Shown: piece by piece, positions 15,001 through 18,000 of the stretch
Layout: every line of letters starts with the position of its first letter
Numbering within the stretch: the stretch's first letter is position 1
From: Escherichia coli
Lineage (GTDB): Bacteria; Pseudomonadota; Gammaproteobacteria; Enterobacterales; Enterobacteriaceae
Length of the DNA stretch: 64,000 nt
Assembly: GCF_046105845.1 (NCBI RefSeq)
Contig: NZ_CP151004.1
Direction: 5' to 3' (one strand)
Made by a program: the position numbers

Positions 15001-18000
15001 AGTGATATTTTTGTGATGTTTTAGATGTGTAATAATGAACCAGGTTAAAGTGTATTTAAAAATGTGTTGTATTGGCGACTGAAATCTGCCCTTTAAAAGG
15101 GGGGATAGCACTGAGACAAAGAGGCATTGCTTCTCCGATAAAATGTCAGAGAAGCATGATTGCGTGGTGATTGTCGATTGATGACTTACTGACGGATCCG
15201 TCATCATTCTCAAAGCATTAGTTAAGTTATTTGTGATTTTTAAGGATTATCCTATCTATGATTTTCTACTCAGAAGGATAAGGCACTCACAATGCTCCTT
15301 ATAGTTTACTGCTGGCATCTATTTAAAATAGCATTTGAGTCAAATAGCCCATCAAGATAGCCATACCTAAGATAACCGTCAGGAATGCAGCTATCATCGG
15401 CATTCTGAACATTGATTTAAGTAATATCACTTCCGTCAGGCTTGCTCCGGCACTGCCGATGATTAATGCCATTAATGCTCCCAGCCCCATTCCTTTTGTC
15501 ATCAGAACAGATGCCAGAGGGATAACCGCCTCTGCCCGGATATACAGCGGAATTCCGACAACGGCGCTCAATGGGATGGCGAAGGGATTATCTGCCCCTG
15601 CATGAGCGGCAATCCACTCTGAGGGAATAAAGCCATAAATAAAAGAGCCTATTAATACCCCTAACAAAAGATATGGCAGTACATCTTTAAACTGTTGCAA
15701 CGCATCTTTGGTGGCTAGTTTTATGGGATTAATACTTACCACAGCTTTGGTACTGCAACAGTTTACTACAGGTTTCTCAATGGCTTTAGCCGCTGGACTA
15801 CAGCAACTCACTTTTATTGGCGTATATGTCGTCCCCGGCGAAGTTTTGGCTGGAGCACAACAATTTGCTGATGAGCTTTTACTGGCAATGATATGACGTT
15901 CAAATCCCAGGGAATCCAGGATAATACTGGCAAGTACGGAGACGCCGGCGGCGATAATCGCGTACAACAAGGTAACTTTCCAGCCAAAGGTCACCCACAT
16001 TAACCCGACGATAATGGGATTAAGTAATGGGGAAACAAATAAAAAAGTGAGGGTCGGACCAAACCCGGCTTTCGCTGATAACAATCCACGTAACATGGGG
16101 ATTGTCGAGCAACTACAGAACGGGGTAACGGCTCCCAACAGAGCAGCCAGGAGATAACCTCTCCCTTTTCTGGCCCCCATCATCTGCTGGATTTTATGGT
16201 CTGGCACCTTTTGTCTTATCAGGCTGACACCGGCACTAATCACTATAAACAGCAAAGAAAGCTCGACGGCGAGAAACACAAACATCTCTGCGGCATCTTG
16301 CAGCATCGCAAGCCAACTACTCATACGTAACCTCATTGAATAAATCTATATTTCCAGAATAATCGAAATGAAATTCAGATCAAGATATTTCTGGTATTAT
16401 CGAAATATCAACCAGACAAAGGGGGTGTCATATGCAGTTGGAAGAAGTTGCTAAAGCGCTGAAAGAGCTAGGTCACCCGACCCGTTTGTTCATATTCAAA
16501 CACCTGGTCAAAGCGGGGGAACAAGGTTTGCCGGTCGGTGAGTTGCAAAAGCAGCTTGGGATACCCGGCTCTACACTCAGTCACCATATTTCAGCACTGG
16601 TATCGGTAGGGCTGGTCAAACAAAACCGTGAGAGTCGGACGCTGATGTGTGTTTCGCAATACGCAATGCTGGAAGCGATAATTGAATTCTTACGCGAGGA
16701 GTGCTGCGTAAATAGCAAAATTGCCTGATGCGCTACGCGCTACAGATTTCATGCCATATATTGAATTTGCACGGTTTTGTAGGTCGGATAAGACGCGTTA
16801 GCGTCGCATCCGACATAAACGAAGCGCACTTTACCAACTATCGGCAGTGGATATCGCCGCTTTATTTCAGGCGTTTACCCGCTTCATCAACCACTTTCTC
16901 GCCATCTTCCTTGGTGAACGCGCCTTGTTGCGCATTTGGCAGAATTTCCAGCACCACTTCTGAAGGGCGGCACAGGCGAGTTCCCAGCGGCGTCACCACA
17001 ATCGGGCGATTAATCAGAATCGGGTGCTGAAGCATAAAGTCGATTAACTGATGGTCAGTAAATTTATCTTCTGCAAGGCCCAGTTCCTCATACGGCTCGA
17101 CGTTTTTACGCAGCAGCGCGCGTACGGAAATCCCCATATCGGCAATGAGTTTGACCAGCTCATCGCGCGTTGGCGGTGTTTCCAGATAATAGATAATGGT
17201 CGGTTCTGTACCGCTGTTGCGGATCATCTCCAGCGTGTTACGCGACGTGCCGCAGGCCGGGTTGTGATAAATGGTAATGTTGCTCATATCAATATCTCAT
17301 TACAAAGTGAAAGAGAGACGTAGCGCCAGCGCAGCCAGCGTCACAAAAAGCACCGGCAGGGTCATGATAATTCCTGTACGGAAGTAATATCCCCAGCTGA
17401 TAGTCATATTCTTCTGCGAAAGTACGTGCAGCCAGAGTAGCGTAGCCAGGCTACCAATTGGGGTAATTTTCGGTCCCAAATCGCAGCCAATCACGTTGGC
17501 ATAAATCATCGCTTCTTTGATAACGCCAGATGCCGTGCTGCCATCAATGGACAACGCGCCAACCAGTACCGTCGGCATATTGTTCATAATAGAAGAGAGG
17601 AAGGCGGTGAGGAATCCGGTGCCGAGCGTCGCGGCCCACAGGCCGTTTTCCGCCAGCACGTTGAGTACGCCAGAAAGATATTCCGTTAGTCCGGCATTGC
17701 GCAGGCCATAAACCACCAGATACATGCCGAGCGAGAAGATGACAATCTGCCAGGGCGCACCGCGTAGCACCTTACCCGTATTAATTGCATGACCGCGTTT
17801 AGCGACGGCAAATAATATCAGCGCGCCCACTGCCGCAATGGCGCTGACCGGAATGCCGAGCGGTTCCAGGACGAAAAATCCCACCAGCAGAAACAGTAAA
17901 ACAACCCAGCCAGTTTTGAAGGTTGCAGGATCTTTAATCGCTTCTGCGGGAGATTTCAGCAGCGCCATATCGTAGTTCTGCGGAATATCTTTGCGGAAAT

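What the first reader, a model, noticed from the sequence alone, without database searches (positions are those of the whole stretch)
15323..16728. Second metalloid-resistance-like module (ArsR-family regulator divergent from an ArsP-like permease) beside the canonical arsRBC operon
Between arsC and yhiS lies a divergent pair that I do not recall in K-12. The permease carries a TPFCSCS motif in a TM segment, which as I remember characterises ArsP organoarsenical efflux permeases. The 98-aa regulator lacks the CVC site of ArsR in its DNA-binding helix but ends in a CC dyad, reminiscent of ArsR variants that bind metalloid through C-terminal cysteines. Its position next to arsRBC suggests an extended arsenic or soft-metal resistance locus.
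Basis: partly seen in the sequence, partly recalled or inferred. Interest (0 to 1): 0.6.

Follow-up and report, generated by a model that had tools for sequence, protein, structure and literature searches.

The report
Methylarsenite sensor and efflux pump pair
Next to the ordinary arsenic-resistance operon, this E. coli strain carries a two-gene module (an efflux permease and its repressor) that matches a characterised Shewanella system for sensing, and probably expelling, the toxic methylated form of arsenic; it is a known kind of system that laboratory strain K-12 has lost.

Summary
Between arsC and yhiS lie a 333/337-aa Pfam ArsP_1 (PF03773) permease on the minus strand (15323-16324/16336) and, divergent from it, a 98-aa ArsR/SmtB regulator (16432-16728).

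The pair is an orthologue of the arsP/SpArsR pair of Shewanella putrefaciens. SpArsR is a methylarsenite [MAs(III)]-selective repressor of the arsP promoter.
- Regulator: 58% identical to SpArsR, no gaps, all three cysteines aligned (C73/C91/C92 = C83/C101/C102).
- Permease: 53% identical to the Shewanella arsP product, and 34% to Campylobacter ArsP, with the same TPFCSCS motif.
- Operator: the intergenic region holds two ATTTC-N10-GAAAT boxes. One matches the Shewanella arsP promoter at 21 of 22 bases.

The pair is in 2219 of 5426 complete E. coli genomes, where RefSeq calls it only "permease" and "ArsR/SmtB family transcription factor". K-12 has deleted it and keeps a decayed 3' remnant of the regulator gene. 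Copies 75-81% identical sit on many Enterobacterales plasmids, in some next to arsH-sigma-arsD-arsA.

Most likely function: MAs(III)-induced efflux of trivalent organoarsenicals. This rests on orthology; nothing has been tested in E. coli.

Verdict: new member of a known kind, modest interest. Open points are an invariant third regulator cysteine and a hypervariable Cys-Cys-rich loop in the permease.

The parts
15323..16324 (-). arsP-type permease gene (333 aa from the RefSeq-style start; an in-frame ATG at 16336 would give 337 aa)
   Evidence: ORF. Pfam ArsP_1 PF03773 E = 7e-53. 53% identical to the Shewanella permease divergent from SpArsR, and 34% (193 bits) to C. coli ArsP. GAGG 6 nt before the 16324 ATG. 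AF2 model pLDDT 88, pTM 0.84.
16106..16126 (-). TPFCSCS motif. Its two cysteines are equivalent to Cys65/Cys67 of Campylobacter ArsP. It lies at a helix break in repeat 1.
   Evidence: Translation. Alignment with C. coli ArsP, Cys at 65 and 67. T, P, F and the first Cys at least 90% conserved in 96 diverse homologues. Break between helices 55-66 and 71-83 in the AF2 model.
15728..15892 (-). Central Ser/Thr/Cys-rich loop with three CC dyads (NCC, SCC, NCC); disordered and hypervariable
   Evidence: Translation. pLDDT about 50 over model residues 150-190. Loop length and CC number vary, 1-4 dyads among the aligned homologues and up to 7 in the representative library, while the membrane core is conserved.
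15530..15556 (-). GIPLYIRAE motif at the equivalent helix break of repeat 2; shared with the Shewanella ArsP (YIRAE) and C. coli ArsP (YLRVE) but not with the thioredoxin-linked paralogue (YSNAT)
   Evidence: Translation. Alignments. AF2 secondary structure, break at residues 261-263.
16348..16369 (.). Operator-like box 1 (ATATTTCCAGAATAATCGAAAT; core ATTTC-N10-GAAAT). It overlaps the predicted promoter of the regulator gene.
   Evidence: Direct and inverted repeats. Promoter-like site TTGAAT-16-AATAAT at 16336-16363 on the plus strand. A box is present at the same place in orthologous loci.
16385..16406 (.). Operator-like box 2 (ATATTTCTGGTATTATCGAAAT). It overlaps the predicted promoters of the permease gene.
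   Evidence: Matches the S. putrefaciens arsP promoter at 21 of 22 bases. The 20-nt core is identical in E. coli, the plasmids and Aeromonas. The only two ATTTC-N10-GAAAT sites in the 64-kb window are here, against 0.11 expected. Minus-strand promoter-like sites at 16431-16404 and 16411-16382.
16432..16728 (+). SpArsR-type ArsR/SmtB repressor gene (98 aa); Cys73 at 16648-16650, Cys91-Cys92 at 16702-16707
   Evidence: ORF. HTH_20 and NCBIfam metalloregulator subfamily above cut-off. Best PDB hit AfArsR 6J05 with CC on Cys95-96. 58% identical to SpArsR without gaps. C-x17-CC in 115 of 120 homologues.

Best explanation
The pair is a self-contained sensing and efflux module for trivalent organoarsenicals, chiefly methylarsenite, MAs(III).

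Proposed mechanism:
1. Without inducer, a dimer of the 98-aa SpArsR-type repressor binds the two ATTTC-N10-GAAAT boxes. These overlap the divergent promoters, so both its own gene and the permease gene are shut off.
2. MAs(III), which needs only two thiol ligands, binds the vicinal pair Cys91-Cys92 at the end of the C-terminal dimerisation helix. The repressor leaves the DNA.
3. The permease is then made. It is an ArsP-family secondary transporter with two repeats. The Cys-Ser-Cys pair and the YIRAE motif sit at helix breaks in the middle of the membrane. It expels MAs(III) and related trivalent organoarsenicals such as reduced roxarsone.

This would complement arsRBC, which handles inorganic arsenite and arsenate.

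Shown here: the genes, the motifs, orthology to the Shewanella system, a conserved operator, and the distribution.
Taken from the literature: MAs(III) selectivity of SpArsR and repression of the arsP promoter; organoarsenical transport by Campylobacter ArsP.
Inferred: that the E. coli proteins keep these specificities, that the loop is cytoplasmic, and the elevator-type mechanism.
For: Regulator:
- Its best solved relative is AfArsR. Query C91-C92 aligns on Cys95-Cys96, and the protein ends before the position of the third ligand Cys102.
- I rebuilt the SpArsR sequence from the published biosensor construct. It is an exact protein in the database.
- It aligns to the window regulator at 53 of 92 identical positions with no gap. 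Cys83/101/102 fall on C73/91/92 and the recognition-helix stretch IPGSTLSHHISAL is identical.

Literature on the reference system:
- SpArsR has a two-coordinate MAs(III) site (Cys101, Cys102) and does not respond to As(III) (PMC11868830; PMC13236881).
- An independent reporter in E. coli, using SpArsR and the arsP promoter, reached 73% of full derepression with 1 uM MMAs(III). With 50 uM As(III) it reached 9% (PMC12124457).

Operator:
- The 22-nt box at 16385-16406 recurs in that same Shewanella arsP promoter with one mismatch.
- Every orthologous intergenic region examined carries these boxes: two or more in seven, one in the ISL3-borne copy.
- They are the only two such sites in the window.

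Permease:
- 53% identical to the Shewanella permease divergent from SpArsR, and both carry three CC dyads in the loop.
- 34% identical (193 bits) to C. coli ArsP from an arsP-arsR-arsC-acr3 operon, against 115 bits between C. coli ArsP and the thioredoxin-linked paralogue.
- Campylobacter ArsP exports MAs(III) and trivalent roxarsone but not As(III) (PMC6205960).

Context:
- Beside arsRBC here.
- Inside a large arsenic island in Shewanella.
Against: - No experiment on the E. coli proteins was found: there were no papers under their accession numbers and none describing an E. coli chromosomal arsP.
- At 53-58% identity, ligand selectivity could have shifted.
- The regulator's third cysteine (C73) is invariant in the family. 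With C91/C92 of the partner subunit it could in principle form a three-sulfur site for inorganic As(III) or another soft metal.
- I could not read Chen et al. 2015 or 2017. Transport by the Shewanella ArsP itself, and the role of Cys83, are therefore unverified here.
- In Vibrio, Aeromonas and Shewanella sp. D64 the pair has no ars neighbours.
- The C. coli protein stands in for the characterised C. jejuni ArsP.
Confidence: 0.72

Rival explanations
1. A second, general arsenite/antimonite module. The three invariant cysteines of the regulator form an S3 site for inorganic As(III)/Sb(III): C91 and C92 of one subunit plus C73 of the other. The permease exports As(III), and on plasmids it acts as the membrane partner of ArsA.
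For: C-x17-CC is invariant in 115 of 120 homologues. The plasmid cluster has arsD and arsA but no arsB or acr3, so the permease is the only membrane protein there. ArsP-ArsA coupling has been proposed before (PMC6205960). The related NdArsR, which has the same CC tail, responds to both As(III) and MMAs(III).
Against: The SpArsR reporter barely responds to 50 uM As(III): 9%, against 73% with 1 uM MMAs(III). The literature describes SpArsR as unresponsive to As(III). Campylobacter ArsP does not transport As(III). The chromosomal locus already has ArsR/ArsB for As(III) and has no ArsA.
Confidence: 0.13
2. A soft-metal efflux system (Cu, Zn, Cd, Hg or similar) like the SO_0444 Cu/Zn or SaoE families. 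The Cys-rich loop and the CSC motif would bind metal ions.
For: The only NCBIfam hits of the permease are SO_0444 (109 bits) and SaoE (86 bits). The CSC motif is shared with those families. The loop carries several CC dyads.
Against: The scores are far below the curated cut-offs of 300 and 325. They are no better than those of bona fide Campylobacter ArsP (82 and 105 bits), the Shewanella ArsP, or 10 other distant relatives. The regulator and operator are orthologous to an arsenical sensor. Neighbours are ars genes in three independent settings.
Confidence: 0.06
3. A thiol-based sensor of reactive sulfur species or oxidants (BigR/YgaV/SqrR-like) controlling a transporter of a sulfur compound.
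For: PDB hits to YgaV and BigR (E = 2e-7), with YgaV's C-terminal Cys aligned to C92. Sub-threshold NCBIfam BigR hit (38 bits against a cut-off of 155).
Against: The regulator lacks the helix-2 cysteine that pairs with the C-terminal Cys in the YgaV alignment; the query has FIFKHL where YgaV has LILCM. No rhodanese, sulfide:quinone oxidoreductase or persulfide dioxygenase neighbours were seen in the loci examined. Direct data show that the orthologue responds to MMAs(III).
Confidence: 0.04
4. An inactive relic that is being lost from E. coli and has no present function.
For: It is absent from 59% of complete genomes. K-12 carries a deletion scar. One close strain has a frameshifted neighbour, yhiS.
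Against: Both ORFs are intact here, with good ribosome-binding sites. The gene is full length at 95% identity or more in 2219 genomes. All motifs and both operator boxes are conserved. Related copies are being spread on conjugative plasmids.
Confidence: 0.03

Closest known systems
Shewanella putrefaciens 200 arsP (Sput200_1226) / SpArsR (Sput200_1227): MAs(III)-selective repressor controlling the arsP promoter (Chen, Nadar and Rosen 2017, as cited in PMC11868830, PMC13236881 and PMC12124457)
   Same: - Divergent permease and regulator architecture.
- Regulator 58% identical with no gaps, the same three Cys, and an identical recognition-helix stretch.
- Permease 53% identical, with TPFCSCS, YIRAE and three loop CC dyads.
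- The same operator box, 21 of 22 bases.
   Different: - The E. coli regulator lacks the 10-residue N-terminal extension.
- The intergenic region is 107 bp with boxes 37 bp apart, against 222 bp with boxes about 108 bp apart.
- The setting is a small arsRBC locus rather than a large arsenic island with arrAB, arsDA, arsJ and a second PF03773 paralogue.
- There are no experimental data for the E. coli proteins.
Campylobacter jejuni ArsP (methylarsenite / trivalent roxarsone efflux permease; Shen 2014, Chen 2015); compared here through the C. coli LMG 9860 orthologue
   Same: PF03773 fold. TPFCSCS with the two conserved Cys (65 and 67). A YLRVE/YIRAE motif in repeat 2. A CC dyad in the central loop. 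Full-length alignment at 34% identity, E = 2e-63.
   Different: Only 34% identical. The Campylobacter gene is first in an arsP-arsR-arsC-acr3 operon under a canonical CVC-type ArsR, not divergent from a C-terminal-CC regulator. Its loop has one CC dyad, against three here.
Acidithiobacillus ferrooxidans AfArsR (type 2 As(III) site: Cys95, Cys96, Cys102; PDB 6J05)
   Same: Best solved-structure relative (E = 5e-10). The CC dyad sits at the same position at the end of the C-terminal helix.
   Different: The third ligand, Cys102, is absent because the E. coli protein ends 6 residues after the dyad. AfArsR has no Cys at the position of C73.
[quoted passage not shown]
   Same: The plasmid permease (75-81% identity) and its 107-aa regulator, near-identical over the first ~95 residues, are close homologues in the same divergent layout with the same two boxes.
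   Different: They are mobile and linked to arsH, an ECF-like sigma factor, arsD and arsA. The permease loop is longer, with up to four CC dyads. The regulator has a 9-residue longer tail.
SO_0444 family Cu/Zn efflux transporters and SaoE (NCBIfam NF033936, NF040736)
   Same: Same Pfam superfamily and the same CSC motif.
   Different: Scores are a third of the family cut-offs. None of 10 lower-ranked members sampled from the 150 nearest 50%-identity representatives belongs to either family.

Membership tests
ArsP organoarsenical efflux permease family (Pfam PF03773 ArsP_1; ArsP cluster 2 of Yang et al. 2015) | Full-length match to the PF03773 profile | tested here: met
   E = 6.9e-53, query residues 13-334 on model positions 3-293 of 294.
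ArsP organoarsenical efflux permease family (Pfam PF03773 ArsP_1; ArsP cluster 2 of Yang et al. 2015) | Conserved C(S/T)C motif in a membrane segment, preceded by tPF (cluster 2); the two Cys are required for transport in CjArsP | tested here: met
   TPFCSCS at 16106-16126. It aligns with Cys65/Cys67 of C. coli ArsP. The motif definition comes from PMC4435449. The motif is not exclusive to arsenical transporters.
ArsP organoarsenical efflux permease family (Pfam PF03773 ArsP_1; ArsP cluster 2 of Yang et al. 2015) | Closer to characterised ArsP than to other PF03773 subfamilies | tested here: met
   193 bits to C. coli ArsP. C. coli ArsP scores 195 bits to the Shewanella arsP product but 115 bits to the thioredoxin-linked paralogue. 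Scores for SO_0444 and SaoE are far below cut-off. No full phylogeny with SO_0444 members was built.
ArsP organoarsenical efflux permease family (Pfam PF03773 ArsP_1; ArsP cluster 2 of Yang et al. 2015) | Transports MAs(III)/Rox(III) but not As(III), and confers resistance | not testable with these tools
   Needs MIC, accumulation and everted-vesicle assays.
SpArsR-type (two-Cys, MAs(III)-selective) ArsR repressors | ArsR/SmtB winged-helix fold without the N-terminal CVC (type 1) site | tested here: met
   HTH_20 and HTH_5. NCBIfam metalloregulator subfamily 61.9 bits against a cut-off of 55. The only cysteines are at 73, 91 and 92.
SpArsR-type (two-Cys, MAs(III)-selective) ArsR repressors | Vicinal Cys pair equivalent to AfArsR Cys95-96 / SpArsR Cys101-102, with no equivalent of AfArsR Cys102 | tested here: met
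   Alignments to 6J05 and to SpArsR. There are six residues and no Cys after the dyad. Of the 120 homologues, 26 do carry an extra downstream Cys.
SpArsR-type (two-Cys, MAs(III)-selective) ArsR repressors | Orthology to SpArsR and the same DNA target | tested here: met
   58% identity without gaps and an identical recognition-helix stretch. Operator box 21 of 22 bases identical to the Shewanella arsP promoter. The box is conserved in all orthologous loci.
SpArsR-type (two-Cys, MAs(III)-selective) ArsR repressors | Derepression by MAs(III) but not As(III) | not testable with these tools
   Known for SpArsR only.
SO_0444 Cu/Zn efflux (NF033936) and SaoE (NF040736) | Score at or above the curated equivalog cut-off | tested here: not met
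   109.2 bits against 300, and 86.5 bits against 325.
BigR/YgaV/SqrR persulfide-sensing ArsR proteins | Cys in helix 2 paired with a C-terminal Cys; equivalog score | tested here: not met
   38.5 bits against a cut-off of 155. There is no Cys in helix 2; the query has FIFKHL where YgaV has LILCM.

The most novel reading that the evidence does not exclude
The E. coli and plasmid modules may do more than the two-cysteine MAs(III) model says.

The invariant third regulator cysteine and the hypervariable, CC-studded permease loop could form a thiol relay. Such a relay would capture organoarsenicals, or other organometal(loid)s such as aromatic arsenicals, organoantimony or methylmercury, and pass them to the Cys-Ser-Cys site.

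On plasmids that carry arsD and arsA but no arsB or acr3, the ArsP permease may be the membrane partner of the ArsA ATPase. That would be an ATP-driven organoarsenical pump not yet described.
Probability: 0.12. Interest if true: 0.6.

Novelty: new member of a known kind. Interest (0 to 1): 0.3.

Why it matters
About 41% of complete E. coli genomes, and several hundred Enterobacterales plasmids (many from poultry), carry what looks like a dedicated methylarsenite and roxarsone defence. Genome annotation currently hides it as "permease" plus "ArsR/SmtB family transcription factor".

K-12, the usual host for arsenic-resistance assays and biosensors, has lost it. K-12 results therefore understate what natural E. 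coli can do.

MAs(III) is made by anaerobes and acts like an antibiotic. A sensor and pump for it in gut E. coli bears on competition in the gut. It also bears on co-selection of resistance plasmids by arsenical feed additives, and on the choice of chassis strains and parts for MAs(III) biosensors.

As a by-product, the passenger genes of the ISL3 element ISPst2b, listed as of unknown function, can now be read as the same kind of module.

Tried and rejected
- Chen et al. 2015 (ArsP) and 2017 (SpArsR) are not held in the library. Their content is used only through papers that cite them.
- The SpArsR sequence was not directly available. I rebuilt it from a machine-read PDF of a synthetic construct that had two dropped bases, then confirmed it by exact look-up.
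- No tandem repeat explains the variability of the loop.
- The two halves of the permease show no significant sequence similarity to each other (E = 5.4). The two-repeat description therefore rests on the model's secondary structure alone.
- NCBIfam has no ArsP model. Its SO_0444 and SaoE hits were considered and rejected as superfamily-level similarity.
- The BigR/YgaV redox-sensor reading was rejected because the partner cysteine is missing.
- Searches for papers on the E. coli proteins by accession number or by an arsP + arsRBC description found nothing specific.
- A linked-dimer AlphaFold model, meant to measure the C73 to C91/92 distance, was not run because the tool returns no coordinates.
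- No tree including true SO_0444 or SaoE sequences was built, because none were in hand.
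Full report
**What is in the sequence**

The window is Escherichia coli chromosome. Its gene order is dctR-slp-yhiS, then the pair, then arsC-arsB-arsR and gor. The nearest complete genomes are 99.4-99.5% identical over the locus.

At 15323-16336 on the minus strand is a 337-aa ORF. RefSeq annotation of near-identical loci starts it four codons later, at 16324, giving 333 aa. That start has a GAGG six bases upstream and fits the homologues' N-termini. At 16432-16728 on the plus strand is a 98-aa ORF, also with a good ribosome-binding site.

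The permease matches Pfam ArsP_1 (PF03773) over its full length (E = 7e-53). The small protein is an ArsR/SmtB winged-helix regulator. The canonical arsRBC operon next door is intact, and its ArsR has the usual ELCVCDLC site.

**The regulator is an orthologue of SpArsR**

Its best relative among solved structures is AfArsR of Acidithiobacillus ferrooxidans (6J05, E = 5e-10). The C-terminal Cys91-Cys92 falls exactly on AfArsR Cys95-Cys96. The protein then stops six residues later, before the position of AfArsR's third arsenite ligand, Cys102.

Two papers describe this arrangement in SpArsR of Shewanella putrefaciens 200. It has a two-coordinate site (Cys101, Cys102) that binds methylarsenite, MAs(III), and does not respond to inorganic As(III) (PMC11868830; PMC13236881).

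A third paper built a biosensor from SpArsR (Sput200_1227) and the promoter of the adjacent arsP gene (Sput200_1226), and printed the construct (PMC12124457). I translated the construct and repaired two bases lost in the PDF text. The resulting 105-aa protein exists exactly in public genomes, for example Shewanella W3-18-1, CP000503.

The window regulator aligns to it without a gap at 53 of 92 identical positions (58%). The stretch IPGSTLSHHISAL in the recognition helix is identical. Cys73/91/92 fall on Cys83/101/102.

In that biosensor, run in E. coli, 1 uM MMAs(III) gave 73% of full derepression. 50 uM As(III) gave 9%.

**The operator is conserved too**

The 107-bp intergenic region contains two copies of a 22-nt element 37 bp apart (16348-16369 and 16385-16406). 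Each has the palindromic core ATTTC-N10-GAAAT. These are the only two such sites in the 64-kb window, against 0.11 expected by chance.

Box 2 (ATATTTCTGGTATTATCGAAAT) recurs in the native Shewanella arsP promoter with a single mismatch, and a second box is present there as well.

The boxes are present in every orthologous intergenic region I extracted: two or more in E. coli, two plasmids, Aeromonas, Vibrio and two Shewanella species, and one in the ISL3-borne copy.

Consensus promoter scans place the regulator's promoter over box 1 and the permease's promoters over box 2. This fits repression of both genes, but the scan is only a pattern match.

**The permease belongs with ArsP**

In Shewanella the gene divergent from SpArsR encodes a 332-aa PF03773 permease. 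It is 53% identical to the window protein over its full length. It has the same TPFCSCS and PLYIRAE motifs and also three CC dyads in its central loop.

A second PF03773 paralogue lies in the same Shewanella island, in an arsC-arsR-permease-thioredoxin operon. It is only 30% identical to the window protein and lacks the CC loop.

To compare with the permease whose transport has been measured, I used a published PCR primer (PMC3774448) to fetch a Campylobacter locus. C. coli LMG 9860 has arsP-arsR-arsC-acr3. Its 315-aa ArsP carries Cys65 and Cys67 in TPFCSCS, plus one SSCC in the loop.

The window permease is 34% identical to it (193 bits). Campylobacter ArsP scores 195 bits with the Shewanella arsP product but 115 bits with the thioredoxin-linked paralogue.

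Reviews state that C. jejuni ArsP exports MAs(III) and trivalent roxarsone but not As(III) or pentavalent species (PMC6205960). Yang et al. report that all ArsP homologues have a membrane C(S/T)C motif, preceded by tPF in their cluster 2 (PMC4435449).

**What the motif does and does not prove**

The CSC motif is also the hallmark of the SO_0444 Cu/Zn efflux and SaoE families. PFCSC occurs in 69 of 91 diverse full-length relatives, and PFC-x-C in 75. By itself it therefore does not identify an arsenical transporter.

The permease's only NCBIfam hits are to SO_0444 and SaoE, at 109 and 86 bits against cut-offs of 300 and 325. Campylobacter ArsP, both Shewanella paralogues and ten lower-ranked members of the 150-representative list score in the same range of 55-120 bits. 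These hits reflect the superfamily, not membership.

**Structure**

An AlphaFold model built on 96 diverse sequences is confident (pLDDT 88, pTM 0.84). It shows two repeats. TPFCSC sits at a break between two short helices (residues 55-66 and 71-83). PLYIRAE sits at the equivalent break of the second repeat. Residues about 145-199, the CC-rich loop, are disordered.

From this I infer a secondary carrier whose substrate site is formed by the two helix breaks. The cysteine pair would bind the two free valences of MAs(III). The cytoplasmic location of the loop and the elevator mechanism are inferences, not results.

**Distribution and history**

The permease gene is present at full length and at least 95% identity in 2219 of 5426 complete E. 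coli genomes. RefSeq names it "permease", and names the regulator "ArsR/SmtB family transcription factor" or "helix-turn-helix transcriptional regulator".

K-12 MG1655 lacks window 15052-16658. It keeps the REP element and a decayed piece of the regulator's 3' end: MLDAIIGISRREYCVNSKIA, against MLEAIIEFLREECCVNSKIA in the window. K-12 thus lost the pair by deletion.

Homologues 75-81% identical lie on several hundred plasmids of Escherichia, Salmonella, Klebsiella and Citrobacter, most of them conjugative and many from poultry.
- In some the pair stands alone between IS26 and Tn3.
- In others it adjoins arsH, an ECF-like sigma factor, arsD and arsA. [quoted passage not shown]
- pESI-type plasmids of Salmonella Infantis carry arsH, arsD and arsA.

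In Vibrio, Aeromonas and Shewanella sp. D64 the pair occurs without ars neighbours. It is an autonomous unit.

**Explanation and alternatives**

The best-supported reading is an MAs(III)-inducible efflux module for trivalent organoarsenicals that complements arsRBC (confidence about 0.7). It rests on orthology of all three parts (regulator, operator, permease) to a system with direct experimental data, and on ars neighbours in three independent settings.

It has not been tested in E. coli, and I found no paper on the E. coli proteins.

The main rival is a general As(III)/Sb(III) module. It draws on one fact the two-cysteine model leaves unexplained: the third cysteine, C73, is invariant (C-x17-CC in 115 of 120 homologues, and the five exceptions look fragmentary or frameshifted). 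It also draws on the plasmid clusters that have ArsD and ArsA but no ArsB or Acr3. The SpArsR reporter data argue against it.

Soft-metal efflux, a redox or persulfide sensor, and a dead relic are each disfavoured by specific tests. These are listed in the rivals and membership tables.

**Novelty and verdict**

The kind of system is known and characterised in Shewanella and Campylobacter, and the plasmid copy has been called arsP in print. What appears new is recognising the chromosomal E. coli pair as an SpArsR/ArsP orthologue with a conserved operator, its presence in about 41% of genomes, and the K-12 deletion scar.

I rate it a new member of a known kind, with modest interest (0.3).

Noticed in passing
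window 16729-16860: REP/BIME-like palindromic element (GCCTGATGCGCTACGC... TGTAGGTCGGATAAGACGCG...CGCATCCGACA) between the regulator's stop codon and arsC. K-12 retains it. It explains why 4360 genomes gave partial matches to the wider query.
   Followed up: partly
L015 (K-12 MG1655) 4800-4990, equivalent to window 16659-16728: K-12 keeps a decayed remnant of the last ~20 codons of the SpArsR-type regulator gene next to arsC. It is the scar of a ~1.6-kb deletion (window 15052-16658) that removed the permease and most of the regulator.
   Followed up: yes
window 19147-19230 and 19381-19464 (minus strand): Two Rfam AgrB-family small RNA copies (108 and 100 bits) between arsR and gor. This is the agrA/agrB-dinQ locus and is unrelated to the finding.
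   Followed up: no
window 13519-14742 (minus strand): yhiS is an intact 407-aa ORF here. In K-12 it is a pseudogene split by IS5, and in strain 19KM1831 it is frameshifted.
   Followed up: no
L005 5485-6099 (Vibrio) and L002 5217-5762 (plasmid pHN257-2): An ECF-like sigma-70 gene accompanies the SpArsR-type regulator gene: it overlaps the regulator's stop in Vibrio and lies two genes away, beyond arsH, on the plasmid. Both sigma proteins end in Cys-rich tails containing a CC dyad (EECCNLS..., ...SHVCCHKK). This hints at a second arsenical-responsive regulator. The gene is absent from the E. coli chromosomal locus.
   Followed up: partly
L004 6569-9319 (IncC plasmid pMB4926_1): The ArsR-like and permease passenger genes of an ISL3-family element match the published description of ISPst2b, whose passenger genes are called 'function unknown' in PMC6947025. 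They are 49-51% homologues of the ArsP/SpArsR pair, with C-x17-CC, TPFCSCS and one ATTTC-N10-GAAAT box. This looks like an IS-borne copy of the same module.
   Followed up: partly
L011 8416-12903 (Shewanella W3-18-1): The Shewanella arsenic island holds a second, 30%-identical PF03773 paralogue with no CC loop. It lies in an arsC-arsR(CVC type)-permease-thioredoxin operon followed by GAPDH and arsJ-like genes. PF03773 thus has at least two arsenic-linked subfamilies in one genome.
   Followed up: partly
window 15728-15892 and homologues P0241-P0260: The permease's central loop varies from about 20 to 120 residues and from 0 to 7 CC dyads between relatives, while the membrane core stays conserved. 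No tandem DNA repeat underlies this in the window.
   Followed up: partly
[not shown]
   Followed up: partly
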